48,141 nt of DNA, taken from the IMG/VR virus record IMGVR_UViG_2675903658_000004; one strand, 5' to 3'. Below are positions 5,169 to 47,556 of the stretch, one piece after another. The notes under the pieces were generated by a model. That model searched no databases and had not been told where the DNA came from. It was given only the letters and a program-made list of their open reading frames with translations. This stretch comes from a virus (Duplodnaviria; Heunggongvirae; Uroviricota; Caudoviricetes). The stretch's first letter is position 1. Each line of letters opens with the position of its first letter. Made by a program: the position numbers and the translations under genes.

Positions 5169-5321
5169 TCAGTGGTTGTCATACCTGGTCTCTCTCATCT
5201 GCTTCTGCTTTCGCCACCATCATTTCCAGCTTTTGTGAAAGGGATGTGGCTAACGTATGAAATTCTTTGAACCGCCCCGGGAATCCTGGAGACTAAACTT
5301 CCTGAGAAAGAGGTAAACAGG

Positions 5322-5648
5322 ATGACTAAAAATACTCGTTTTTCCCCCGAAGTCCGTCAACGGGCAGTCCGTATGGTTCTGGAAAGTCAGAGCGAATATG
5401 ACTCACAATGGGCGACAATTTGTTCCATTGCTCCAAAGATTGGCTGTACGCCGGAGACTCTGCGTGTCTGGGTTCGCCAGCATGAGCGGGATACCGGGGG
5501 CGGTGATGGAGGGCTCACCACCGCTGAACGTCAGCGTCTGAAAGAGCTGGAACGTGAAAATCGTGAACTGCGCTGCAGTAACGATATCCTTCGCCAGGCT
5601 TCCGCTTATTTTGCGAAGGCGGAGTTCGACCGCCTCTGGAAAAAATGA
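5322..5648 (+). CDS. IS629 OrfA (HTH transposase subunit)
   Basis: 108-aa ORF with HTH and leucine-zipper-like region; ends in an A-run where orfB overlaps in the -1 frame. Confidence 0.9.
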
Positions 5649-6535
5649 TGCCACTGCTGGATAAGCTGCGTGAGCAGTACGGGGTCGGACCGCTATGCAG
5701 CGAACTGCATATTGCCCCGTCAACGTATTACCACTGTCAGCAACAGCGACATCATCCGGATAAACGCAGTGCCCGTGCGCAGCGCGATGACTGGCTGAAG
5801 AAAGAGATACAGCGCGTATACGATGAAAATCACAAGGTATACGGTGTGCGTAAAGTCTGGCGTCAGTTGTTACGGGAAGGTATCAGAGTGGCCAGATGCA
5901 CTGTGGCACGTCTCATGGCGGTTATGGGACTTGCCGGTGTTCTCCGGGGTAAAAAGGTCCGTACGACCATCAGCCGGAAAGCCGTTGCCGCAGGCGACCG
6001 CGTAAACCGTCAGTTCGTGGCAGAACGACCTGACCAGCTGTGGGTGGCTGATTTTACTTACGTCAGCACATGGCGGGGCTTCGTCTATGTGGCGTTCATC
6101 ATTGATGTGTTTGCCGGATACATCGTGGGGTGGCGGGTCTCATCGTCCATGGAAACGACATTCGTGCTGGATGCACTGGAGCAGGCGTTATGGGCCCGTC
6201 GACCGTCCGGCACGGTCCATCACAGTGATAAAGGTTCTCAGTATGTATCGCTGGCCTACACACAGCGGCTTAAGGAAGCCGGATTACTGGCATCAACAGG
6301 AAGTACAGGCGACTCGTATGACAACGCGATGGCGGAGAGCATCAATGGTCTTTACAAAGCGGAGGTAATACACCGTAAGAGCTGGAAAAACCGTGCAGAA
6401 GTGGAACTGGCCACACTCACGTGGGTGGACTGGTATAACAATCGACGATTGCTGGAAAGGCTGGGCCATACTCCTCCGGCAGAAGCAGAAAAAGCTTATT
6501 ATGCTTCCATCGGAAACGATGATCTGGCAGCCTGA
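5645..6535 (+). CDS. IS629 OrfB (DDE integrase-core transposase)
   Basis: 296-aa ORF with an rve/DDE core; -1 frame relative to orfA. Confidence 0.9.
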
Positions 6536-6655
6536 GTTCACAGATAAAACACTCTCCAGGAAACCCGGGGCGGTTCACTTCGTCTGTTTCTACTGGTATT
6601 GGCACAAACCTGACTCCAATTTGAGCAAGGCTATGTGCCATCTCAATACTCGTTC

Positions 6656-8818: not shown

Positions 8819-8951
8819 TTTTTGGGACTCCTGGCTGATTAAGTATGTCGATAAGGCGTTTCCATCCGTCACGTAATTTACGGGTGATTCGTTCAAGTAA
8901 AGATTCGGAAGGGCAGCCAGCAACAGGCCACCCTGCAATGGCATATTGCAT
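8787..8951 (-). CDS. cIII: CIII (FtsH protease inhibitor)
   Basis: Not in the ORF track (under 60 aa); hand translation from the ATG at 8951 gives [54 protein letters not shown], matching lambda CIII; overlaps the kil start. Confidence 0.85.
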   Translation of the reverse strand: MQYAIAGWPVAGCPSESLLERITRKLRDGWKRLIDILNQPGVPKNGSNNYGYPD

Positions 8952-9023
8952 GGTGTGCTCCTTATTTATACATAACGAAAAACGCCTCGAGTGAAGCGTA
9001 ATTGGTATGCGGTAACGCCGCGC

Positions 9024-9392
9024 TCAGGCGGCCTTGATAGTCATATCATCTGAATCAAATATTCCTGATGTATCGATATCGGTAATTCTTATTCCTTCAC
9101 TACCATCCATTGGAGGCCATCCTTCCTGACCATTTCCATCATTCCAGTCGAACTCACACACAACACCATATGCATTTAAGTCGCTTGAAATTGCTATAAG
9201 CAGAGCATGTTGCGCCAGCATGATTAATACAGCATTTAATACAGAGCCGTGTTTATTGAGTCGGTATTCAGAGTCTGACCAGAAATTATTAATCTGGTGA
9301 AGTTTTTCCTCTGTCATTACGTCATGGTCAATTTCAATTTCTATTGATGCTTTCCAGTCGTAATCAATGATGTATTTTTTGATGTTTGACAT
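9024..9392 (-). CDS. ea10: Ea10-like early protein
   Basis: 122-aa ORF matching recalled lambda Ea10; correct position between cIII and ral. Confidence 0.8.
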   Translation of the reverse strand: MSNIKKYIIDYDWKASIEIEIDHDVMTEEKLHQINNFWSDSEYRLNKHGSVLNAVLIMLAQHALLIAISSDLNAYGVVCEFDWNDGNGQEGWPPMDGSEGIRITDIDTSGIFDSDDMTIKAA

Positions 9393-9574
9393 CTATTCAT
9401 ATCCTCATAGATAAAAAATCGCCCTCACACTGGAGGGCAAAGAAGATTTCCAATAATCAGAACAAGTCGGCTCCTGTTTAGTTACGAGCGACATTGCTCC
9501 GTGTATTCACTCGTTGGAATGAATACACAGTGCAGTGTTTATTCTGTTATTTATGCCAAAAATAAAGGCCACTA

Positions 9575-9775
9575 TCAGGCAGCTTTGTTGTTCTGTTTAC
9601 CAAGTTCTCTGGCAATCATTGCCGTCGTTCGTATTGCCCATTTATCGACATATTTCCCATCTTCCATTACAGGAAACATTTCTTCAGGCTTAACCATGCA
9701 TTCCGATTGCAGCTTGCATCCATTGCATCGTTTGAATTGTCCACACCATTGATTTGTATCAATAGTCGTAGTCAT
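9575..9775 (-). CDS. ral: Ral (restriction alleviation protein)
   Basis: 66-aa MTTTIDTNQWCGQFKRCNGCKLQSECMV... matching lambda Ral. Confidence 0.9.
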   Translation of the reverse strand: MTTTIDTNQWCGQFKRCNGCKLQSECMVKPEEMFPVMEDGKYVDKWAIRTTAMIARELGKQNNKAA

Positions 9776-9845
9776 ACGGATAGTCCTGGTATTGTTCCAT
9801 CACATCTTGAGGATGCTCTTCGAACTCTTCAAATTCTTCTTCCAT
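9759..9845 (-). CDS. 28-codon acidic ORF upstream of ral (MEEEFEEFEEHPQDVMEQYQDYPYDYDY)
   Basis: Hand-translated; ATG at 9845, TGA at 9759-9761, overlaps the ral start; identity with a lambda small ORF is only from uncertain memory. Confidence 0.3.
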   Translation of the reverse strand: MEEEFEEFEEHPQDVMEQYQDYPYDYDY

Positions 9846-9988
9846 ATATCACCTTAAATAGTGGATTGCGGTAGTAAAGATTGTGCCTGTCTTTTAACCA
9901 CATCAGGCTCGGTGGTTCTCGTGTACCCCTACAACGAGAAATCGGATAAACTCTATTCACCCCTACAGAGAGCAAAAGAGAAACGCCG

Positions 9989-10570
9989 ATGAACAACTCA
10001 TGGTGGCAGGAACTAATGCATTTTTTCCTGCAAGGAATGACACTTAAACAGTTGATTCATATGCTAATCATCCTGATCATATTGATTATTGTTATGCCGG
10101 TAAGCGTAAAAGAATGGATAAACCTGCATAGTCCAGAAATCCTTCCTCATTACTGGATGTATTACATCCTGTTGTTTTGCGTTAGCTATGTGCTTAACGG
10201 CGTTGTTAATTCCGCTTATCACGCTGTGACTGAAAGAATTGAGGTATTCGCTGCTCAGAAGCGCAAATCTAAAGAAGAAAAATATGTGCAAGATTTGTTT
10301 GATTCGTTAACTCTTGGAGAAAGAGCGTATTTGGCATTCGCTGTAGCCGCTAATAACCAGCTACAAACGGAAAAGGGCGCTCATGAATCAATTTCATTGC
10401 TCAAAAAAGGACTCCTCGTTCGAAGGCCTCCTGCTGTTGGATATCCTGATACCGACCGTTTCGTTATCCCTGAAAGCTATAGACATGAGTGCTACATTAG
10501 GTTTGCCGGGAAGGCAGACAGCCTTATGGATGAACTTATCGCTCAGGATAAGCATGGCAAAAACAAGTAA
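9989..10570 (+). CDS. sieB: SieB superinfection exclusion protein
   Basis: 193-aa protein with an N-terminal hydrophobic segment, matching recalled lambda SieB; opposite strand to the pL operon as in lambda. Confidence 0.9.
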   Translation: MNNSWWQELMHFFLQGMTLKQLIHMLIILIILIIVMPVSVKEWINLHSPEILPHYWMYYILLFCVSYVLNGVVNSAYHAVTERIEVFAAQKRKSKEEKYVQDLFDSLTLGERAYLAFAVAANNQLQTEKGAHESISLLKKGLLVRRPPAVGYPDTDRFVIPESYRHECYIRFAGKADSLMDELIAQDKHGKNK

Positions 10571-10586
10571 TTAGCAAATGAATTTA

Positions 10587-10859
10587 TCATCTCGCCGTCA
10601 GTTGTTTTGATTTCCGGTAGCCTGCCGCGTAAAGAGCTACGTTCGGAAGACAAGTTGAACCTTCATATTTTCTGGTCAACGTTGTCAGAGTTATCACTTC
10701 TGCTCTCATTGCTGGTTTGAGCTTGCATTGCAAGACCACTCGTGAAGGGGTTGGCCTGTGTAGCTTGTCGGAGCTGATCGCCTCCTGACTTTGCAGATTT
10801 GCGCGACGAGCTCTACGGCGAGAAGCTGCGGTGCCTTTAAATTCTGTTTTTCTGGACAT
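10587..10859 (-). CDS. N: N-like transcription antitermination protein (non-lambda specificity type)
   Basis: Arg-rich N-terminus (TAASRRRARRANLQ) and a C-terminus ...CLPNVALYAAGYRKSKQLTAR recalled from H-19B/933W-type N; ATG at 10859 preceded by GGAGG; ORF track start at 10931 is probably too far upstream. Confidence 0.7.
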   Translation of the reverse strand: MSRKTEFKGTAASRRRARRANLQSQEAISSDKLHRPTPSRVVLQCKLKPAMRAEVITLTTLTRKYEGSTCLPNVALYAAGYRKSKQLTAR

Positions 10860-10971
10860 GGATTCCTCCCGAATAAACTTTGGCGATGCAATCTCGAAGC
10901 TCCTCCTGAGACGGTTGCTTCGGCATTGCATCCCACAGCTTATGTGGTTGGGTGATCTGGCTTTTCAGCCA

Positions 10972-11019: not shown

Positions 11020-11110
11020 TTGGCTTCCAGCGTCCTGCTGACGGTTAAATAGTACGATATGTACTTTACAAGATCAATACAATTTGTTGTAAGTTGGCGT
11101 GGTTTTTTAT
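11020..11110 (-). promoter_or_regulatory. probable oL/pL region
   Basis: Intergenic, AT-rich, upstream of N; contains the palindrome AGTACGATATGTACT (11051..11065) and TTACAA...TTGTAA inverted repeats; operators not resolved. Confidence 0.35.
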
Positions 11111-11270
11111 AACGCTTTGTATTTAATAGTGTTGTTTTTTAGCGTGGATGTATTGCCTCGGCGATGTAAGGAGAGATCAGAATTGCGTGGTTTAGTGGGT
11201 TGCATCTATTTATTTTTCAATAAATATAATTGGTTATGTGTTTTTAGGTGGGCGAACGTGAGGCAAAGAA

Positions 11271-11292
11271 AACCCGGCGCTGAGGCCGGGTT
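11271..11292 (-). terminator. rho-independent terminator ending the cI/rex-slot operon
   Basis: Perfect 8-bp stem AACCCGGC/GCCGGGTT with a 6-nt loop, followed on the minus strand by UUUUCUUUG (plus 11262..11270); lies 4 nt past the 250-aa ORF stop. Confidence 0.55.
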
Positions 11293-11295
11293 GTA

Positions 11296-12048
11296 TTATG
11301 CTGCAAGTCTCTTAACCCAAGTCTCTCTTTTGGAGAATGGTAGAACTTGGCTTGATTCATGGAAGAGTAAGGAGAGTTGTTGCATTTGATCACCAATTGC
11401 TTCGCTGTCTATAACAACAAATCTGTTGTTATACTCCTCACTTGAAGCTTTAAGATCAATTAGTTTCCCAAGCAATGAGTAAGCACTATTCCAGCTTCCT
11501 CCGTGTTTCACGCTTGATGTAAAAACGTATTTAGGTATGTCGGTTTTTATTGTTACAGGGACGGTAATTTGATGTCCACTCAAGCCATATACGTTTTCAC
11601 GAAGAGAAAGTGCGTCTCTAAGCTCTGTGTGATATAGATAATCAATAACCATACTTTCAAACTTTTCAGCTTGAACTGGCTGATACCAGTCTAACGACAA
11701 AGTTGATGCGAGTATACCAGCTCTAATTATGTTCGATGTAATCGCACCGACATCCTTTTCTGTTGCCCAAGCAATGATTTCTCCTCGAGCATTGAGTTCT
11801 GCGCCTTCTTTAAGCAGTAATTGTCGTATCTCATCAAGTCGTTTTTTGGTAAGCGAGATCCCTCTTGCCTCCATATTCATTAAGGCATCGCATCTGTCAC
11901 TAACTAAATACCTACCATTGACTTCACGGATAAAGGCACCGACATGCTCTCCATCATCACAGTAAGTGAATGGACTGATAATTCTCAAGGTCTTGCCTAT
12001 TGGATGGCATTCGAAACCTAGTTGTGAGATCACTGTTGAGCACATCAT
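11296..12048 (-). CDS. hypothetical protein, rex-slot gene 2 (250 aa), candidate defence/exclusion component
   Basis: ATG at 12048 overlaps the upstream stop in an ATGA arrangement; AT-rich; no recognisable motif; occupies the rexB position. Confidence 0.6.
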   Translation of the reverse strand: MMCSTVISQLGFECHPIGKTLRIISPFTYCDDGEHVGAFIREVNGRYLVSDRCDALMNMEARGISLTKKRLDEIRQLLLKEGAELNARGEIIAWATEKDVGAITSNIIRAGILASTLSLDWYQPVQAEKFESMVIDYLYHTELRDALSLRENVYGLSGHQITVPVTIKTDIPKYVFTSSVKHGGSWNSAYSLLGKLIDLKASSEEYNNRFVVIDSEAIGDQMQQLSLLFHESSQVLPFSKRETWVKRLAA

Positions 12049-12602
12049 ATTCCAAACCCCATTTGCCCCGACTCATCTTCAAGCGGTAAAGGTATTCTCC
12101 CAGAGTAAGTTATGTTCAGATGTTTACAGAAGTAATTCCAATACCCTACCAGGTCATCTGGGTTTATGTCATCTTCGATTGGAAACGCTATTCTATCACT
12201 ATAGTATCCAGCTTCTTCATAGTATACATGGTAGTGAGCACCGTAAATGATATCTTGGTACTTCGGATGATCGACCTTGTAACTATTCGTGTGTTTGTCA
12301 AAGTGATAGGTATCTACCGCGAAAACCCTCTTGTTATGATAGAAAGCAATAATATTTATTTTAGGGTAAGAAATCGGGTCATCAGGTTCTGAATCCTGAT
12401 CTGGTTTCCATTTCAGTTCAAACTTTAGCCCTTGTATAGGTATACAATCCTCATCCAAGGGGATGATATGGGCTTGTAGCCACATATCAGAGCGACTTGG
12501 TTTCTGTTTCCATTTAACGCCAGAAAAGTTAACTATTTTTTTACAATAAAGTACTTTATCAACTTCTACTTGGCTTGGCTGATAATCATCTATTTTTGCC
12601 AA
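12045..12602 (-). CDS. hypothetical protein, rex-slot gene 1 (185 aa), candidate defence/exclusion component
   Basis: Begins 39 nt downstream of the cI stop, same strand; annotated start is TTG (non-ATG), so the true start is uncertain; Tyr/His/Asp-rich, no TM segment seen. Confidence 0.55.
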   Translation of the reverse strand: MAKIDDYQPSQVEVDKVLYCKKIVNFSGVKWKQKPSRSDMWLQAHIIPLDEDCIPIQGLKFELKWKPDQDSEPDDPISYPKINIIAFYHNKRVFAVDTYHFDKHTNSYKVDHPKYQDIIYGAHYHVYYEEAGYYSDRIAFPIEDDINPDDLVGYWNYFCKHLNITYSGRIPLPLEDESGQMGFGI

Positions 12603-12641
12603 TGTTTACCGCCCTGTAAATTGTAGATAAAAGTGGTTTCA

Positions 12642-13301
12642 TCACCCAAACGTCTCTTCAGGCCATTGGCTGGCGATAACTTTCCCCACAACGGAACAAC
12701 TCTCATTGCATGGGATCATTGGGTATTGTGGGTTTAGTGGCTGTAGAAACACCTGACCGCTATCCCTGATCAGTTTCTTGAAGGTAAATTCATCACCACC
12801 AAGTCTGGCTATGCAGAAATCGCCGGGCTCAACAGCTTGCTCAGGGTCAACCAGAATTAACATCCCGTCAGGAAAGCTGGGTTTGGAACCTGTTGGTGCG
12901 GTCATTGAGTTACCTTCAACCTCAAGCCAGAATGCAGAGTCACTGGCTTTTTTGGTTGTGCTTACCAATCTCTCCGCATCGCCTTTGGTAAAGGTTCTGA
13001 GTTCTGGAGAGAACATCCCAGCCTGAACATGAGAAAAAACAGGGTACTCATATTGTTTTTTAACTGGGGCCGATGAGTATTCGCCAACAGGTGAAAATGT
13101 CCCGTCGTGGTTGAATGATATGTTATCAATACCAAGGTATTTAAACACCACACCAATATCACTAAGAGATGGATGACGAGATCCGCGCAACCAGTGTCCA
13201 ATCCCACCCTGCGTCATACCTAGCTCTTCGGCTAACTTCTCTTGAGTTATGCCGAGCTCTTTCATTCTGGATCTAGCCAGTTCATACCATTTCATTTTCA
13301 T
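12642..13301 (-). CDS. cI: CI-type prophage repressor (HTH plus S24/LexA-like autocleavage domain)
   Basis: N-terminal HTH ([22 protein letters not shown]), C-terminal GNSM...K motifs of S24 peptidases; divergent from cro across an operator region; start taken at an internal ATG. Confidence 0.85.
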
Positions 13302-13412
13302 GTCCTTATTATTACGCTCTGTACTGGAACCATCCATGCACAATGTGTATTTTTACTTGTATTCGCAAAGTACATATTGTATTTTTTTATTCGTGTTTAC
13401 TATGGAGGGCAT
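13302..13412. promoter_or_regulatory. oR/pRM/pR divergent promoter-operator region
   Basis: About 110-bp AT-rich intergenic region between divergent cI and cro; contains TACTTGTATTCGCAAAGTA-type partial inverted repeats; GGAGGG precedes the cro ATG. Confidence 0.5.
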
Positions 13413-13628
13413 ATGAGCAACCTACGAAAATATCGAGAGTCACTGAATATCTCTCAAACAACACTTGCTAAGGCAGTTGGATGCACACAGGGAGCTATCG
13501 GACATTGGGAATCTGGTCGTCGCTTCCCAGACCTTAAAACATGCCGTGCTCTTGTTGCGTGCCTAAACAAGTTAGGCGCAAAAGTCAGTCTTGATGACGT
13601 GTTCCCGCCGGAACACAAAGCCGCTTAA
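13413..13628 (+). CDS. cro: Cro-like HTH repressor
   Basis: 71-aa product from the internal ATG at 13413 (ORF track start 13242 is too far upstream); HTH QTTLAKAVGCTQGAIGHWESG. Confidence 0.8.
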   Translation: MSNLRKYRESLNISQTTLAKAVGCTQGAIGHWESGRRFPDLKTCRALVACLNKLGAKVSLDDVFPPEHKAA

Positions 13629-13666: not shown

Positions 13667-13769
13667 TACGTCGCTGAAAAGCGAGTTCCAAGATATCTGA
13701 CCAACTAAGGCCATATGCGTTTCCACGCATACCTTTCAACTAACTATTCACTATTGGAAATCTTAAGAA

Positions 13770-14066
13770 ATGGAAAGAACAAGTTACAGCAAACTATCAC
13801 AGCGTGACGTTGATCGCGCAGAAACAGATTTACTTATCAATCTGTCAGCTATTACCCAGCGCGGTCTGGCAAAGATGATTGGCTGTCATGAATCGAAGAT
13901 AAGCAGAACGGACTGGAGATTTATTGCTTCGGTCTTGTGTGCTTTCGGAATGGCATCAGACATCAGTCCGATTAGCAGGGCTTTTAAGTATGCGCTTGAT
14001 GGACTCACCAATAAAAAACGCCCGGCGGCAACCGAGCGTTCTGAACAAATCCAGATGGAATTCTGA
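13770..14066 (+). CDS. cII: CII transcriptional activator
   Basis: C-terminus ...TNKKRPAATERSEQIQMEF matches lambda CII. Confidence 0.9.
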   Translation: MERTSYSKLSQRDVDRAETDLLINLSAITQRGLAKMIGCHESKISRTDWRFIASVLCAFGMASDISPISRAFKYALDGLTNKKRPAATERSEQIQMEF

Positions 14067-14088
14067 GGTCATTACTGGATCAATCCAC
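14012..14088 (-). ncRNA. oop: oop antisense RNA (putative)
   Basis: Minus-strand sequence matches recalled lambda OOP RNA, including the terminator GCCGCCGGGCG followed by UUUUUUAUU; antisense to the cII 3' end. Confidence 0.5.
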
Positions 14089-14446
14089 AGGAGTCATTAT
14101 GACAAATACAGCAAAAATACTCAACTTCTGCAGAGGTAACTTTGCCAAACAGGAGCGTAATGTGGCAGATCTCGATGATGGTTACGCCAGACTATCAAAT
14201 ATGCTGCTTGAGGCTTATTCAGGCGCAGATCTGACCAAGCGACAGTTTAAAGTGCTGCTTGCCATTCTGCGTAAAACCTATGGATGGAATAAACCAATGG
14301 ACAGAATCACCGATTCTCAACTTAGCGAGATTACAAAGTTACCCGTCAAACGGTGCAATGAAGCCAAGTTAGAACTCGTCAGAATGAATATTATCAAGCA
14401 GCAAGGCGGCATGTTTGGACCAAATAAAAACATCTCAGAATGGTGT

Positions 14447-14580: not shown

Positions 14581-14727
14581 GAATTCTGGCGAATCCTCTG
14601 ACCAGCCAGAAAACGACCTTTCTGTGGTGAAACCGGATGCTGCAATTCAGAGCGGCAGCAAGTGGGGGACAGCAGAAGACCTGACTGAACCGCCCCGGGT
14701 TTCCTGGAGAGTGTTTTATCTGTGAAC

Positions 14728-15618
14728 TCAGGCTGCCAGATCATCGTTTCCGATGGAAGCATAATAAGCTTTTTCTGCTTCTGCCGGAGGAGTATGGCCC
14801 AGCCTTTCCAGCAATCGTCGATTGTTATACCAGTCCACCCACGTGAGTGTGGCCAGTTCCACTTCTGCACGGTTTTTCCAGCTCTTACGGTGTATTACCT
14901 CCGCTTTGTAAAGACCATTGATGCTCTCCGCCATCGCGTTGTCATACGAGTCGCCTGTACTTCCTGTTGATGCCAGTAATCCGGCTTCCTTAAGCCGCTG
15001 TGTGTAGGCCAGCGATACATACTGAGAACCTTTATCACTGTGATGGACCGTGCCGGACGGTCGACGGGCCCATAACGCCTGCTCCAGTGCATCCAGCACG
15101 AATGTCGTTTCCATGGACGATGAGACCCGCCACCCCACGATGTATCCGGCAAACACATCAATGATGAACGCCACATAGACGAAGCCCCGCCATGTGCTGA
15201 CGTAAGTAAAATCAGCCACCCACAGCTGGTCAGGTCGTTCTGCCACGAACTGACGGTTTACGCGGTCGCCTGCGGCAACGGCTTTCCGGCTGATGGTCGT
15301 ACGGACCTTTTTACCCCGGAGAACACCGGCAAGTCCCATAACCGCCATGAGACGTGCCACAGTGCATCTGGCCACTCTGATACCTTCCCGTAACAACTGA
15401 CGCCAGACTTTACGCACACCGTATACCTTGTGATTTTCATCGTATACGCGCTGTATCTCTTTCTTCAGCCAGTCATCGCGCTGCGCACGGGCACTGCGTT
15501 TATCCGGATGATGTCGCTGTTGCTGACAGTGGTAATACGTTGACGGGGCAATATGCAGTTCGCTGCATAGCGGTCCGACCCCGTACTGCTCACGCAGCTT
15601 ATCCAGCAGTGGCATCAT
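14728..15618 (-). CDS. IS629 OrfB transposase
   Basis: Protein identical to copy 1 OrfB. Confidence 0.9.
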
Positions 15619-15941
15619 TTTTTCCAGAGGCGGTCGAACTCCGCCTTCGCAAAATAAGCGGAAGCCTGGCGAAGGATATCGTTACTGCAGCGCAGTTCAC
15701 GATTTTCACGTTCCAGCTCTTTCAGACGCTGACGTTCAGCGGTGGTGAGCCCTCCATCACCGCCCCCGGTATCCCGCTCATGCTGGCGAACCCAGACACG
15801 CAGAGTCTCCGGCGTACAGCCAATCTTTGGAGCAATGGAACAAATTGTCGCCCATTGTGAGTCATATTCGCTCTGACTTTCCAGAACCATACGGACTGCC
15901 CGTTGACGGACTTCGGGGGAAAAACGAGTATTTTTAGTCAT
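15615..15941 (-). CDS. IS629 OrfA
   Basis: Protein identical to copy 1 OrfA. Confidence 0.9.
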
Positions 15942-16307
15942 CCTGTTTACCTCTTTCTCAGGAAGTTTAGTCTCCAGGATTCCCGGGGCGGTTCAGACCG
16001 CCGCAGAATGGATGTTTGACATGGTGAAGACCATCGCGCCATCAGCCAGAAAACCGAATTTTGCAGGGTGGGCTAACGATATCCGCCTGATGCGTGAACG
16101 TGACGGACGTAACCATCGCGACATGTGTGTACTGTTCCGCTGGGCATGCCAGGACAACTTCTGGTCCGGTAACGTGCTGAGCCCGGCCAAACTCCGCGAC
16201 AAGTGGACCCAGCTCGAAATCAACCGTAACAAGCAACAGGCAGGTGTGACAGCCTGCAAACCAAAACTCGACCTGACAAACACTGACTGGATTTACGGGG
16301 TGGATTT

Positions 16308-44179: not shown

Positions 44180-46189
44180 GTGAATATGGCAGTACAGATT
44201 TCAGGCGTGCTGAAAGACGGTGCAGGAAAACCGATACAGAACTGCACCATTCAGCTCAAAGCAAAACGTAACAGCACCACGGTTGTGGTGAACACGGTGG
44301 CCTCAGAAAATCCGGATGAAGCCGGACGTTACAGCATGGATGTCGAGTATGGCCAGTACAGCGTTATCCTGCTGGTTGAAGGTTTTCCGCCTTCACATGC
44401 CGGGGCCATCACCGTGTATGAGGATTCTAAGCCGGGGACATTGAATGATTTTCTGGGCGCTGCAACAGAAGATGATGTTCGTCCGGAGGCACTGTATCGT
44501 TTTGAAAAGATGGTGGAAGAGGTGGCACGCAACGCTGAAGCCGCCTCTCAGAGCGCAGCGGCAGCAAAGAAATCAGAAACAGCAGCGGCATCGTCCAGGA
44601 ATGCGGCGAAAACATCAGAGACGAATGCAGGTAACAGCGCGAAAGCGGCAGCTTCTTCAAAAACAGCCGCACAAAACGCAGCAACAGCGGCAGAACGTTC
44701 AGAGACAAATGCCCGTGCGTCAGAAGAAGCCTCCGCAGACAGTGAAGAGGCTTCCCGCCGTAATGCAGAGTCAGCCGCTGAAAATGCCGGAGTCGCCACC
44801 ACAAAAGCGCGGGAGGCCGCAGCAGACGCAACAAAGGCCGGGCAGAAAAAGGATGAGGCTCTGTCGGCAGCGACACGGGCTGAAAAGGCGGCAGACCGCG
44901 CAGAAGTCGCAGCGGAAGTGACTGCAGAGCCCTATGCGAATATAGTGCCGCCGCTGCCTGATGTGTGGATACCGTTTAACGATTCACTGGATATGATTGC
45001 GGGTTTTTCTCCGGGCTATAAAAAAATAGCTATTGGTGACGATGTGGTTCAGGTCGCCAGTGATAAACAGGTTAATTTCAGTCGCGCATCAACGGCAACA
45101 TATATCAACAAATCTGGCGAACTGAAAACGGCGGAAATTAATGAGCCGCGATTTGAGTGTGATGGCCTGCTTATTGAGGGACAAAGAACGAACTACATGC
45201 TCAATTCGGAAAGTCCAGCCAGCTGGGGGAAGTCATCAAACATGGATGTGCCCGAAACCGGGACAGATAGTTTTGGTTTTACTTATGGAAAGTTTGTCTG
45301 CAACGATTCTCTGGTTGGGCAAACTTCGGCTATTAATATGGCATCAATTGCTGCAACAAAGTCAGTTGATGTCTCAGGCGATAACAAGTACGTGACAACC
45401 TCATGCCGTTTTAAAACAGAACGACAGGTAAGGTTACGTATACGGTTTGATAAGTATGATGGTAGTGCAACAACTTTTCTTGGCGATGCGTACATTGATA
45501 CGCAAACGCTTGAAATTAATATGACAGGTGGGGCTGCCGGCAGAATTACGGCACGAGTCAGGAAGGATAAGACCACAGGCTGGATTTTTGCAGAGGCAAC
45601 GATTCAGGCAATTGATGGTGAGTTAAAAATAGGCTCTCAGATACAGTATTCTCCTGAGCGGGGTGGGGCAACAGTATCTGGTGACTATATTTATCTTGCC
45701 ACCCCACAAGTAGAGAATGGGCCGTGTGTATCATCATTTATTATTTCAGGAGGCAGCGCAACGACAAGAGCCAGTGATTTGGTTAGTATCCCCACCAGAA
45801 ATAATCTTTATAAGTTACCATTTACTTTTTTACTTGAGATTCATAAAAACTGGGATATTGCACCAAACGCCGCACCCCGCGTGTGGGATATAGCAGCAGC
45901 CAATACCGGGCAATCAGCAATTGCAGCAATCAACAGAGGTAGTGGTAAGTTATATATGAGTCTGTCAAACCCTTCAGGCTTGTATGTTAATAGCGCAGCG
46001 ACAGATGTATTTGCAGAGAAAACCACATTTGGATGTATTGCAAAAGCTGATGGTCACTTTCATGTGGTGACAAATGGTAAAGCGGTTAATGAAGTTTATT
46101 GTGAATATAATGGTGTGACCGCTGATAAAAATATCCGATTTGGAGGGCAGACGAATACTGGAGAACGACATCTGTTTGGCCATATTTGA
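44180..46189 (+). CDS. stf: side tail fiber protein (Stf-like N-terminus, distinct C-terminal domain); last 20 codons displaced by IS629 copy 3
   Basis: N-terminus MAVQISGVLKDGAGKPIQNCTIQLKAKRNSTTVVVNTV... matches lambda Stf; Ala/Ser-rich repeats; the ORF's stop TGA is the first three bases of the IS629 terminus. Confidence 0.85.
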   Translation: MNMAVQISGVLKDGAGKPIQNCTIQLKAKRNSTTVVVNTVASENPDEAGRYSMDVEYGQYSVILLVEGFPPSHAGAITVYEDSKPGTLNDFLGAATEDDVRPEALYRFEKMVEEVARNAEAASQSAAAAKKSETAAASSRNAAKTSETNAGNSAKAAASSKTAAQNAATAAERSETNARASEEASADSEEASRRNAESAAENAGVATTKAREAAADATKAGQKKDEALSAATRAEKAADRAEVAAEVTAEPYANIVPPLPDVWIPFNDSLDMIAGFSPGYKKIAIGDDVVQVASDKQVNFSRASTATYINKSGELKTAEINEPRFECDGLLIEGQRTNYMLNSESPASWGKSSNMDVPETGTDSFGFTYGKFVCNDSLVGQTSAINMASIAATKSVDVSGDNKYVTTSCRFKTERQVRLRIRFDKYDGSATTFLGDAYIDTQTLEINMTGGAAGRITARVRKDKTTGWIFAEATIQAIDGELKIGSQIQYSPERGGATVSGDYIYLATPQVENGPCVSSFIISGGSATTRASDLVSIPTRNNLYKLPFTFLLEIHKNWDIAPNAAPRVWDIAAANTGQSAIAAINRGSGKLYMSLSNPSGLYVNSAATDVFAEKTTFGCIAKADGHFHVVTNGKAVNEVYCEYNGVTADKNIRFGGQTNTGERHLFGHI

Positions 46190-46240
46190 ACCGCCCCGGG
46201 AATCCTGGAGACTAAACTTCCTGAGAAAGAGGTAAACAGG

Positions 46241-46567
46241 ATGACTAAAAATACTCGTTTTTCCCCCGAAGTCCGTCAACGGGCAGTCCGTATGGTTCTG
46301 GAAAGTCAGAGCGAATATGACTCACAATGGGCGACAATTTGTTCCATTGCTCCAAAGATTGGCTGTACGCCGGAGACTCTGCGTGTCTGGGTTCGCCAGC
46401 ATGAGCGGGATACCGGGGGCGGTGATGGAGGGCTCACCACCGCTGAACGTCAGCGTCTGAAAGAGCTGGAACGTGAAAATCGTGAACTGCGCTGCAGTAA
46501 CGATATCCTTCGCCAGGCTTCCGCTTATTTTGCGAAGGCGGAGTTCGACCGCCTCTGGAAAAAATGA
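46241..46567 (+). CDS. IS629 OrfA
   Basis: Protein identical to copy 1 OrfA. Confidence 0.9.
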
Positions 46568-47454
46568 TGCCACTGCTGGATAAGCTGCGTGAGCAGTACG
46601 GGGTCGGACCGCTATGCAGCGAACTGCATATTGCCCCGTCAACGTATTACCACTGTCAGCAACAGCGACATCATCCGGATAAACGCAGTGCCCGTGCGCA
46701 GCGCGATGACTGGCTGAAGAAAGAGATACAGCGCGTATACGATGAAAATCACAAGGTATACGGTGTGCGTAAAGTCTGGCGTCAGTTGTTACGGGAAGGT
46801 ATCAGAGTGGCCAGATGCACTGTGGCACGTCTCATGGCGGTTATGGGACTTGCCGGTGTTCTCCGGGGTAAAAAGGTCCGTACGACCATCAGCCGGAAAG
46901 CCGTTGCCGCAGGCGACCGCGTAAACCGTCAGTTCGTGGCAGAACGACCTGACCAGCTGTGGGTGGCTGATTTTACTTACGTCAGCACATGGCGGGGCTT
47001 CGTCTATGTGGCGTTCATCATTGATGTGTTTGCCGGATACATCGTGGGGTGGCGGGTCTCATCGTCCATGGAAACGACATTCGTGCTGGATGCACTGGAG
47101 CAGGCGTTATGGGCCCGTCGACCGTCCGGCACGGTCCATCACAGTGATAAAGGTTCTCAGTATGTATCGCTGGCCTACACACAGCGGCTTAAGGAAGCCG
47201 GATTACTGGCATCAACAGGAAGTACAGGCGACTCGTATGACAACGCGATGGCGGAGAGCATCAATGGTCTTTACAAAGCGGAGGTAATACACCGTAAGAG
47301 CTGGAAAAACCGTGCAGAAGTGGAACTGGCCACACTCACGTGGGTGGACTGGTATAACAATCGACGATTGCTGGAAAGGCTGGGCCATACTCCTCCGGCA
47401 GAAGCAGAAAAAGCTTATTATGCTTCCATCGGAAACGATGATCTGGCAGCCTGA
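46564..47454 (+). CDS. IS629 OrfB transposase
   Basis: Protein identical to copy 1 OrfB. Confidence 0.9.
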
Positions 47455-47556
47455 GTTCACAGATAAAACACTCTCCAGGAAACCCGGGGCGGTTCATATT
47501 CGCAATTTCCGCATATGGCATAAAGAATTAAATGACAGGCAATTAAAAGAGGTCGT

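What the first reader, a model, noticed from the sequence alone, without database searches (positions are those of the whole stretch)
11262..12602. Uncharacterised two-gene operon in the rexAB slot between cI and pL/N: candidate novel anti-phage exclusion module
In lambda the interval between cI and pL holds rexA-rexB, co-transcribed with cI from pRM, and this slot is a known hotspot for exclusion cargo in lambdoid prophages. Here it holds two translationally coupled genes (185 aa, annotated start TTG at 12602; 250 aa, ATG at 12048 in an ATGA overlap with the upstream stop) on the cI strand, 39 nt after the cI stop, ending in a hairpin terminator (11271..11292 plus U-run) just before pL. The DNA is visibly AT-rich compared with flanking cI and N (exact GC not computed), which suggests horizontally acquired cargo. 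Neither protein resembles RexA/RexB, and I see no kinase, Walker, or transmembrane motifs. Genes here would be expressed in the lysogen, so a superinfection-exclusion or abortive-infection role is the natural hypothesis.
Basis: partly seen in the sequence, partly recalled or inferred. Interest (0 to 1): 0.85.

Follow-up and report, generated by a model that had tools for sequence, protein, structure and literature searches.

The report
Untested two-gene prophage defence candidate
Two coupled genes of unknown function sit where phage lambda keeps its rexAB exclusion genes, and three computational lines (position next to the prophage repressor, remote PADLOC homology, a published machine-learning prediction) mark them as a probable anti-phage system that nobody has tested.

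Summary
Gene A (185 aa, TTG start at 12602) begins 39 nt after the cI stop. Gene B (250 aa) starts in an ATGA overlap at 12048. B's stop is followed 3 nt later by a hairpin identical to lambda's Timm terminator, upstream of oL/pL and N. The pair has 39.6% GC against 50.6% for the window.

- The exact proteins (WP_001062368.1, WP_000968518.1) are already listed as "predicted novel defense genes" in DefensePredictor Table S5. They were not among the units that study cloned and tested.
- Both proteins are remote relatives of the untested PADLOC candidate PDC-M24.
- In 80 of 80 viral contigs and about 25 further loci from at least 12 genera, A directly precedes B. The pair almost always lies just downstream of the prophage repressor, whatever the repressor type.

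B combines a type III secretion chaperone-like domain (DUF1828) with a restriction-endonuclease-fold domain (DUF1829) that lacks a canonical D…(D/E)xK motif. A has no recognisable fold relative, an invariant R/D/H/N/H/H cluster, and always a GTG or TTG start in its enterobacterial clade.

Best reading: a lysogen-expressed sensor/effector exclusion module (confidence about 0.55). Its mechanism is unknown.

The parts
12642..13343 (-). cI-type prophage repressor (HTH_3 + Peptidase_S24). The first gene of the presumed pRM operon. NCBI starts it at 13337.
   Evidence: Pfam Peptidase_S24 E 1.3e-28 and HTH_3 E 2.1e-10. Annotated as a LexA family protein in Nissle 1917.
12603..12641 (-). 39-nt cI-A spacer with a Shine-Dalgarno-like AGGGCGG. 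No terminator.
   Evidence: Sequence read. No terminator-like site here, and only one 9/12 promoter-like match, which is not above shuffled expectation.
12045..12602 (-). Gene A, 185 aa, TTG start. An orphan-fold, mostly beta protein with invariant K22, W31, R92, D97, H104, N106, G121, H123, H125. Its C-terminal tail is conserved but predicted disordered (P173, E175, S178, G179, Q180, G182). It is a remote DUF6978 / PDC-M24A relative.
11296..12048 (-). Gene B, 250 aa, ATG in an ATGA overlap with A's stop. The N-terminal domain (about 1-121) is DUF1828, with a type III secretion chaperone-like fold. The C-terminal domain (about 129-250) is DUF1829, with a PD-(D/E)xK restriction-endonuclease fold but no canonical catalytic motif.
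11261..11292 (-). Intrinsic terminator (stem-loop 11292..11271 plus T-rich tail), identical to lambda Timm. It marks the left edge of the cargo cassette.
   Evidence: Terminator scan. 92% identity to lambda from 11292 leftwards, with the hairpin itself identical.
11047..11090 (.). oL operator-like palindromes / pL region. The sequence is shared with oR.
   Evidence: Inverted repeats I1 and I9 pair 11047-11067 and 11076-11087 with 13367-13387.
13344..13415 (.). cI/cro divergent control region (oR, pRM/pR), the presumed source of the cI-A-B transcript in the lysogen.
   Evidence: Sequence read and operator sharing. Analogous features are annotated in HK542. Promoter activity itself is inferred.
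10587..10931 (-). N antiterminator, the first gene of the pL operon. It bounds the slot on the left.
   Evidence: Pfam N_peptide E 9.7e-33.

Best explanation
A and B form a prophage-borne, lysogen-expressed two-protein module that excludes or aborts superinfecting phages. It is a diverged branch of the untested PADLOC candidate PDC-M24, and it occupies the lambda rexAB position.

**Shown here.**
- The two genes lie between cI and the Timm terminator on the cI strand, with no terminator before them.
- They are translationally coupled.
- They travel as an inseparable A-then-B unit next to prophage repressors of several unrelated types.
- They are under purifying selection.
- They have foreign base composition.

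**Inferred.**
- The genes are transcribed with cI from pRM and kept at low level. This rests on the conserved GTG/TTG start of A, with B translation coupled to A.
- The proteins form a complex. A's conserved but disordered C-terminal tail may dock on B's chaperone-like DUF1828 domain.
- In the resting lysogen the complex is inert.
- A product or DNA/nucleotide signal of an incoming phage is sensed, either by the faster-evolving A surface or by B's DUF1828/DUF1829 domains.
- Sensing releases an enzymatic activity that stops the infection.

**Which protein is the effector is unsettled.** I lean to A as effector and B as sensor/regulator.
- A has the invariant R92/D97/H104/N106/H123/H125 cluster.
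- B's nuclease-fold domain lacks the canonical catalytic residues.
- This would parallel the DUF1829 partner in HipAD.
- The reverse arrangement, with B as a non-canonical nuclease, is not excluded.
For: **Anatomy.** Gene order, spacing, overlap, terminator and operators are as described.

**Synteny.**
- A directly precedes B in 80 of 80 IMG/VR loci.
- The same order holds in loci from Aeromonas, Pectobacterium, Izhakiella, Yersinia, Providencia, Xenorhabdus, Pantoea, Salmonella and Klebsiella, and in metagenomes where A is only 22-28% identical.
- The gene just upstream is an S24 repressor from four separate sequence clusters in 67 of the 80 viral loci, and a short CI-type HTH repressor in 7. 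One further locus has a 137-aa protein without a Pfam match, which I judge repressor-like from a shared C-terminal motif only.

**Selection.** dS is saturated while dN is 0.09-0.68. A's dN is about 1.5-2 times B's.

**Composition.** 39.6% GC against 50.6% for the window.

**PADLOC.** B matches PDC-M24B at E 4.7e-10 over its full length, and 9 of 9 family members match it (best 1.8e-15). A matches PDC-M24A at E 4.8e-4. PDC systems were defined by embedding inside BREX, DISARM or type I RM loci.

**DefensePredictor.** The exact B scores log-odds 5.64 and the exact A 4.90, against a strict cut-off of 4.

**Structure.** B combines a chaperone-like domain with a restriction-endonuclease-fold domain. 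A has an invariant polar cluster and a conserved disordered tail.

**Start codon.** A starts with GTG or TTG in all 80 viral loci, covering 41 alleles.

**Known precedents.** Lambda rexAB sits in the identical slot. A validated system, HipAD/DS-6, uses a DUF1829 partner protein.
Against: **No experimental support.**
- No experiment on this pair or on any PDC-M24 member was found.
- The pair is absent from the tested and validated tables (S6-S8) of the DefensePredictor study.
- 55% of the predictions tested there failed.

**The prediction lines are not fully independent or strong.**
- DefensePredictor uses neighbouring genes and GC content, so it is not independent of the positional argument.
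- A's links to DUF6978 and PDC-M24A are weak: E about 1e-4, 60 residues, below Pfam's gathering score.

**No assignable enzyme activity.**
- B's DUF1829 domain has no conserved D…(D/E)xK. The invariant polar residues are only S157, T177 and D198, plus a near-invariant H159.
- A has no fold relative.
- No catalytic activity can therefore be assigned to either protein.

**Other points against.**
- A evolves faster than B, which is unusual for an effector.
- RexAB itself also has a role in the lysis-lysogeny switch, so the slot does not by itself imply defence.
Confidence: 0.55

Rival explanations
1. A-B serves the prophage's own lysis-lysogeny decision rather than acting against other phages. 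For example, it could bind the repressor or operator DNA to tune induction. A role of this kind has been reported for lambda RexA (from my own knowledge; not checked here).
For: The pair is strictly linked to the repressor gene, whatever the repressor family. B has a DNA-enzyme fold without catalytic residues, which would suit DNA binding. The DUF1829 partner of HipAD is predicted to bind DNA.
Against: The same A-B alleles sit beside repressors of unrelated sequence, and beside both S24 and non-S24 types. A specific repressor-binding partner would be expected to co-vary with its repressor. A distant pair lies in a primase-bearing element with no repressor identified next to it. PDC-M24 relatives are embedded in RM/BREX/DISARM loci, not in prophage switches.
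Confidence: 0.12
2. A-B is a toxin-antitoxin-like addiction module. It stabilises the prophage (post-segregational killing) and has no anti-phage activity.
For: The arrangement is a small, translationally coupled two-gene operon. The first gene has a conserved weak start codon, consistent with a dose-sensitive product. The pair is retained in defective prophages: the O gene is split by an IS element here, and int is truncated in Nissle.
Against: There is no match to any known toxin or antitoxin family in Pfam, NCBIfam or PADLOC. Both proteins are larger than typical type II components. Many toxin-antitoxin modules in prophages act in defence anyway, so this rival overlaps the main reading.
Confidence: 0.1
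3. A-B is lysogenic-conversion cargo that benefits the host in a way unrelated to phages, such as stress tolerance, metabolism or virulence.
For: The genes are expressed-in-lysogen morons of foreign composition. They are common in extraintestinal-pathogenic (ExPEC) / phylogroup-B2-type and other clinical strains and in Nissle 1917. B's N-terminal domain has the fold of type III secretion chaperones.
Against: Neither protein has a signal peptide, membrane span or metabolic domain. The chaperone-like fold also occurs in cytoplasmic proteins unrelated to secretion (DUF2170, Tll0839). The family also occurs embedded in restriction/BREX loci. Both defence predictors flag it.
Confidence: 0.1

Closest known systems
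Lambda RexA/RexB exclusion system
   Same: The slot is identical: directly after cI, on the same strand, ended by the same Timm hairpin, upstream of oL/pL. Both are two genes presumed to be expressed in the lysogen.
   Different: There is no sequence similarity (BLASTP E>=1) and no RexA Pfam match. Neither A nor B has the membrane spans of RexB. The genes here overlap by 4 nt, while rexA and rexB are separated by 15 nt. The mechanism cannot be an ion-channel depolarisation of the RexB kind.
PADLOC phage defence candidate PDC-M24 (Payne et al. 2024, bioRxiv 10.1101/2024.01.29.577857)
   Same: It is a two-gene A+B cassette of the same sizes. B matches PDC-M24B over its full length, and A matches PDC-M24A over the H104-H125 core.
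   Different: The relationship is distant (E 1e-4 to 1e-10), so this is a separate clade. PDC systems were defined by embedding in BREX, DISARM or type I RM loci, whereas this clade sits next to prophage repressors. PDC-M24 has not been tested experimentally.
HipAD / DS-6 (DefensePredictor, Science 2026, PMC13092281)
   Same: It is a validated two-protein defence system whose second protein carries a DUF1829 domain. That protein is thought to be the regulatory, DNA-binding partner of the effector.
   Different: The partner there is a HipA-like kinase and the DUF1829 protein carries DUF3037. Here the partner is an orphan-fold protein with no kinase motif, and the DUF1829 domain is fused to DUF1828.
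BstA (prophage BTP1, Owen et al. 2021, PMC8585504)
   Same: It is prophage-encoded abortive-infection cargo. Its location downstream of the repressor gene is from my own knowledge; only the abstract was seen here.
   Different: It is a single protein of an unrelated family. No PADLOC match was found between A or B and any named system.
PD-(D/E)xK restriction-endonuclease-fold effectors (NgoMIV/PspGI family; Can2/Card1 nuclease domains)
   Different: The invariant columns contain no acidic/lysine catalytic triad, so nuclease activity is not supported by sequence.

Membership tests
Lambda RexAB | RexA homology (Pfam PF15969) | tested here: not met
   The Pfam scan of A and B gives no RexA hit. 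BLASTP against lambda RexA gives E>=16.
Lambda RexAB | RexB-type polytopic membrane protein | tested here: not met
   Maximum 19-residue hydropathy is 0.45 (A) and 1.19 (B), against 2.39 for RexB. BLASTP against RexB gives E>=1.
Lambda RexAB | Position between cI and Timm/pL, on the cI strand | tested here: met
Lambda RexAB | Exclusion of T4 rII and other phages in lysogens | not testable with these tools
   Needs plaque assays.
PADLOC PDC-M24 | B component matches the PDC-M24B profile | tested here: met
   E 4.7e-10, residues 2-249 on profile positions 4-254 of 256. 9 of 9 family members match, best E 1.8e-15.
PADLOC PDC-M24 | A component matches the PDC-M24A profile / DUF6978 | tested here: inconclusive
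   PDC-M24A E 4.8e-4 over residues 104-163 only. DUF6978 scores 22 bits against a cut-off of 29.6, and 5 of 17 family members hit it.
PADLOC PDC-M24 | A and B adjacent and co-oriented | tested here: met
   80 of 80 viral loci and all other loci examined.
PADLOC PDC-M24 | Embedded in BREX, DISARM or type I RM loci (the basis of the PDC definition) | tested here: not met
   Here and in all fetched loci the pair is in a prophage immunity region or another mobile element.
PD-(D/E)xK nucleases (B C-terminal domain) | Restriction-endonuclease-like alpha/beta core fold | tested here: met
PD-(D/E)xK nucleases (B C-terminal domain) | Conserved catalytic D…(D/E)xK or a known variant | tested here: inconclusive
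   Invariant columns in residues 129-250 are F130, V134, L138, G155, S157, G158, P164, T177, G194, D198 and V211. K173 and K181 vary, and there is no acidic residue at the start of strand 2. No structural superposition of side chains was possible.
Type III secretion chaperone-like / YbjN-like fold (B N-terminal domain, DUF1828) | Fold similarity and Pfam DUF1828 match | tested here: met
HipAD (DS-6) | HipA-like Ser/Thr kinase partner | tested here: not met
   No kinase domain in A or B.
Validated anti-phage defence system (any) | Experimentally shown protection | not testable with these tools
   The pair is not in the tested or validated tables of PMC13092281. No other paper in the held library mentions the proteins or domains.

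The most novel reading that the evidence does not exclude
A is the founding member of a new enzyme fold. Its catalytic site would be a His/Asp/Asn cluster (R92, D97, H104, N106, H123, H125). It would be held in check by a chaperone-like, degenerate-nuclease-fold partner (B).

Together they would form a mechanistically new abortive-infection system carried next to prophage repressors across Enterobacterales and Aeromonas.

This system would also be the unidentified factor behind the complete resistance of E. coli Nissle 1917 to lambda and Stx phages reported in 2018.
Probability: 0.2. Interest if true: 0.75.

Novelty: new variant of a known kind. Interest (0 to 1): 0.5.

Why it matters
If the pair defends, it adds a system with an unassigned fold and no assignable chemistry to the known bacterial immune repertoire. 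It would also show that the rexAB slot is a general repressor-linked landing pad for two-gene immunity cassettes across several genera.

The pair is present with 100% identity in widely used strains:
- the probiotic Nissle 1917
- ATCC 25922
- the E. coli type strain ATCC 11775
- about 4% of complete E. coli genomes
- many Salmonella assemblies (its B homologue P0024, 84% identical, is indexed in 505 blocks of the assembly collection)

It could therefore affect phage therapy, phage-based engineering of probiotics and Stx-phage spread.

It also offers a concrete, cheap test of a high-scoring but untested machine-learning prediction. And it offers a candidate for an unexplained published phenotype: Nissle's block to lambdoid phages without lysogeny.

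Tried and rejected
**Homology to known slot cargo.**
- RexA/RexB: none.
- The unrelated two-gene pair in the same slot of phage HK542/HK244: none. That pair is itself unassigned in Pfam and PADLOC.

**Library scans.**
- NCBIfam: nothing meaningful.
- PHROGs: only 'unknown function' families 2017 and 1960.

**Sequence searches of PDB chains with single proteins and with profiles.**
- The one 'significant' hit was the designed Kelch propeller SAKe6AC, E 9e-12.
- It is an artefact. It sums six sub-threshold matches of one hairpin motif (RIYAVD…H.N) to six identical designed repeats.

**Fold searches for A.**
- Foldseek against BFVD: nothing at E<=0.001.
- The AlphaFold-database library was not available.

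**Catalytic motif in B.** I looked for a canonical or CCGG-family-type PD-(D/E)xK site. The candidate lysines (K173, K181) are not conserved.

**Literature.**
- Searches for DUF1828, DUF6978, PDC-M24, the protein accessions and the PHROG numbers gave nothing relevant.
- Brenes & Laub 2025, the most likely place for a test of this slot, is not held. A validation there cannot be excluded.
- I checked whether the Nissle 2018 'phage repressor' was this cI. It is not; it is the cII gene.

**Failed call.** The search for related loci with the broad B alignment failed for lack of a conserved stretch.
Full report
**1. The observation**

Every structural statement in the finding checks out.
- The six-frame ORF list gives cI at 12642..13343(-), gene A at 12045..12602(-) (185 aa, TTG start) and gene B at 11296..12048(-) (250 aa, ATG start).
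- The minus-strand sequence shows 39 nt between the cI stop and the TTG. It also shows ...GGA ATA TGA overlapping ATG ATG TGC, which is the ATGA junction.
- NCBI's pipeline calls the same two genes with the same ends in E. coli Nissle 1917 (WP_001062368.1 and WP_000968518.1).
- The terminator scan finds a stem-loop at 11292..11271(-) with 8 pairs, 6 of them G-C, followed by TTCTTTGCCT.
- That hairpin is base-for-base the lambda Timm terminator. Similarity to lambda (92-93.5%) starts exactly at 11292, 3 nt after B's stop codon. In lambda it starts at the rexB stop codon.
- Operator-like palindromes at 11047-11090 are shared with the cI/cro intergenic region at 13367-13387, and N lies at 10587-10931(-).

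| Region | GC |
|---|---|
| A+B | 39.6% |
| cI | 46.3% |
| N | 49.9% |
| whole window | 50.6% |

Only 3.5% of equal-length windows are as AT-rich.

The negative statements also hold. There is no Rex similarity, no Walker A motif, no membrane span and no kinase domain.

**2. These are real, selected genes that travel as a unit**

The A family is very small. A profile search of 1.84 billion cluster representatives finds only 20 at E<=0.001. B has more relatives, all annotated only as 'DUF1828 domain-containing'.

*Adjacency of A and B.*
- Wherever I fetched DNA, an A homologue directly precedes a B homologue on the same strand, usually with a 4-nt overlap.
- This holds in Aeromonas, Pectobacterium, Izhakiella, Yersinia, Providencia, Xenorhabdus, Pantoea, Salmonella and Klebsiella.
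- It also holds in metagenomic contigs where A is only 22-28% identical.
- In an IMG/VR scan, 109 viral contigs encode a B relative. In all 80 loci returned, an A homologue sits immediately upstream.

*Link to the repressor.* The nearest upstream same-strand gene in the 80 viral loci is:

| Upstream gene | Loci |
|---|---|
| S24 (LexA-like) repressor, four separate sequence clusters | 67 |
| short CI-type helix-turn-helix repressor | 7 |
| 137-aa protein, no Pfam match; I judge it repressor-like from a shared C-terminal motif only | 1 |
| small DUF3024 gene inserted between A and whatever lies further upstream | 5 |

- In the two Providencia loci the cI-like match ends about 400-550 nt before A, which leaves room for one small gene.
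- In Salmonella and Klebsiella the pair follows a 128-131-aa non-S24 repressor.

*Selection and spread.*
- Synonymous sites are saturated while dN is 0.09-0.68. A's dN is 1.5 to 2 times B's.
- The locus is 100% identical in Nissle 1917, ATCC 11775, ATCC 25922 and viable temperate phages (ev017, ev207, PhiR57_1, PhiR63_2).
- It covers at least 80% of the query in 239 of 5,426 complete E. coli genomes.

**3. What the proteins look like**

*Protein B.*
- The model has pLDDT 84.5 and two domains.
- Residues 129-250 superpose on restriction-endonuclease-fold proteins: Can2 10.2, PspGI 10.0, BstEII 9.7, NgoMIV 9.4, I-Bth0305I 8.5, Cfr10I 8.0.
- A published HHpred run on this exact protein agrees: DUF1828 99.5% (residues 25-114) and DUF1829 98.8% (residues 155-241, Pfam clan PDDEXK).
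- Across relatives down to 31% identity, the invariant residues of the second domain are F130, V134, L138, G155, S157, G158, P164, T177, G194, D198 and V211.
- No conserved acidic residue sits at the start of strand 2, and no conserved lysine sits on strand 3. A canonical nuclease site is therefore not supported.
- The N-terminal domain keeps C3, C14, D32, E34, D51 and E90.

*Protein A.*
- The model has pLDDT 82 and pTM 0.81 and is mostly beta.
- Its only family link is a weak match of residues 104-163 to DUF6978 and PDC-M24A.
- K22, W31, R92, D97, N106, G121, H123 and H125 are invariant, and H104 nearly so, down to about 22% identity. This looks like a catalytic or metal/ligand site, but that is inference.
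- The last 13 residues are strongly conserved (P173, E175, S178, G179, Q180, G182) yet predicted disordered. I read them as a docking tail for a partner, most simply B. This too is inference.
- A starts with GTG or TTG in all 80 viral loci (41 distinct alleles) and in the Salmonella, Klebsiella, Pectobacterium, Aeromonas and Pantoea loci. Only two very distant homologues use ATG.
- A weak start conserved over this divergence points to selection for low dosage.

**4. Independent pointers to defence**

*PADLOC.*
- B hits PDC-M24B over its full length (E 4.7e-10), all nine family members hit it (best 1.8e-15), and A hits PDC-M24A weakly.
- PDC systems are 145 candidates defined because their cassettes are embedded inside BREX, DISARM or type I RM loci. 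They were added to PADLOC untested.

*DefensePredictor (Science 2026).*
- Table S5 lists exactly these proteins from an assembly in its 69-strain, mostly ECOR, set as 'Predicted novel defense gene'. The log-odds are 5.64 (B) and 4.90 (A), above the strict cut-off of 4.
- Table S10 lists them again in a larger E. coli set.
- They do not appear in Tables S6-S8, which hold the 118 cloned units and the 42 validated systems. They are therefore predicted but untested.
- That study's overall validation rate was 45%.
- Its validated system DS-6/HipAD carries a DUF1829 domain in the non-kinase partner. That partner is thought to bind the toxin and DNA.

**5. Most likely mechanism**

*Shown.*
- The genes lie on the cI strand with no terminator before them and with a lambda Timm after them.
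- They are translationally coupled.
- They are linked to the repressor across genera.
- They are under purifying selection.
- Their base composition is foreign.

*Inferred.*
- The pair is transcribed with cI from pRM in the lysogen.
- The proteins form a low-abundance complex.
- An infection cue is sensed and an activity is released that blocks the superinfecting phage.

*Which protein does what.* I lean to A as effector and B as sensor/regulator for four reasons:
- A's invariant polar cluster
- A's weak start codon
- B's degenerate nuclease fold
- the HipAD analogy

A's faster evolution argues the other way, and B could be a non-canonical nuclease. I give the defence role about 0.55, and any specific assignment of roles much less.

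**6. Rivals**

- A role in the prophage's own switch (0.12) is weakened because the same pair sits beside unrelated repressor types.
- A pure addiction module (0.10) and non-phage lysogenic conversion (0.10) are not excluded.
- Chance ORFs are excluded by conservation.

**7. Comparison with known systems and novelty**

- The pair works like lambda RexAB in position and presumed expression, but it fails both protein-level membership tests.
- It is a distant, differently located clade of the untested candidate PDC-M24.
- It shares one domain with HipAD's partner protein.
- It is not a member of any validated system represented in PADLOC v2.
- The candidate is not new as a prediction, but it is uncharacterised as biology.
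- I rate it a new variant of a known kind (repressor-linked prophage exclusion cargo), with interest 0.5.

**8. Caveat**

Brenes & Laub 2025, which screened E. coli prophage fragments against temperate phages, could not be read. The GenBank records of the PhiR phages, which I assume but could not confirm come from that work, still call both genes 'hypothetical protein'. A prior test cannot be excluded.

Noticed in passing
window 13725-14091 (cII gene 13770-14066, +): The 'phage repressor (pr)' of Nissle 1917 prophage 3 was cloned by Bury et al. 2018 (PMC5987069) and credited with partial resistance to lambda and Stx phages. Its cloning and qPCR primers map exactly onto the CII-family activator gene of this prophage type, not onto cI. 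That paper's 'unidentified factor' giving complete resistance lies in the same prophage as the A-B pair.
   Followed up: partly
window 5268-6577 (+), 14686-15995 (-), 46187-47496 (+): There are three 100% identical 1310-bp IS3-family elements, each with an ALIL frameshifting pseudoknot (Rfam RF01497). The middle copy truncates the replication gene O at about 14725, so this prophage is probably replication-defective while keeping its immunity region and the A-B pair.
   Followed up: partly
window 12600-12602, and loci L027-L106: Gene A uses a GTG (56) or TTG (24) start in all 80 viral loci, covering 41 alleles. The same holds in loci from Salmonella, Klebsiella, Pectobacterium, Aeromonas and Pantoea. 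Only two very distant homologues use ATG. This is a conserved weak start codon.
   Followed up: yes
window 9989-10570 (+): A SieB superinfection-exclusion homologue (Pfam SieB E 9e-22, PHROG 1301 E 1e-121) lies just beyond N on the opposite strand, in a second AT-rich stretch (9000-10586, 40.7% GC). The prophage therefore carries at least one further exclusion gene near the A-B pair.
   Followed up: partly
L002 (phage HK542 immunity region) 1450-2501: HK542 and HK244 carry a different, unrelated two-gene pair (144 aa + 206 aa, also with a 4-nt overlap) in the same cI-Timm slot. Neither protein has a Pfam or PADLOC assignment. The slot looks like a general landing pad for coupled two-gene cassettes.
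   Followed up: partly
L061 2052-2393 and four similar viral loci; L010/L011 (Providencia): In some prophages a small DUF3024 gene (113 aa) lies immediately upstream of A in the viral loci. In Providencia a gap of about 400-550 nt between the cI-like match and A could hold such a gene. Function unknown.
   Followed up: no
window 8906-8964 (-): A lambda cIII thermoregulator RNA element (Rfam RF01804, 88.5 bits) is present, marking the cIII gene of this prophage.
   Followed up: no
protein A residues about 80-110: The hairpin motif R-[IV]-[FY]-A-V-D…H-x-N resembles one blade of Kelch repeats. This produces a spurious E 9e-12 profile hit to a designed six-bladed Kelch protein (8pjr) through six summed sub-threshold matches.
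   Followed up: yes
L014 (JGI metagenome contig, 22 kb): A very distant A-B pair (A 23% identical) sits at the end of an element encoding a D5_N/DUF5906 primase and an SRAP protein, rather than in a lambdoid prophage. No repressor was identified next to it.
   Followed up: no
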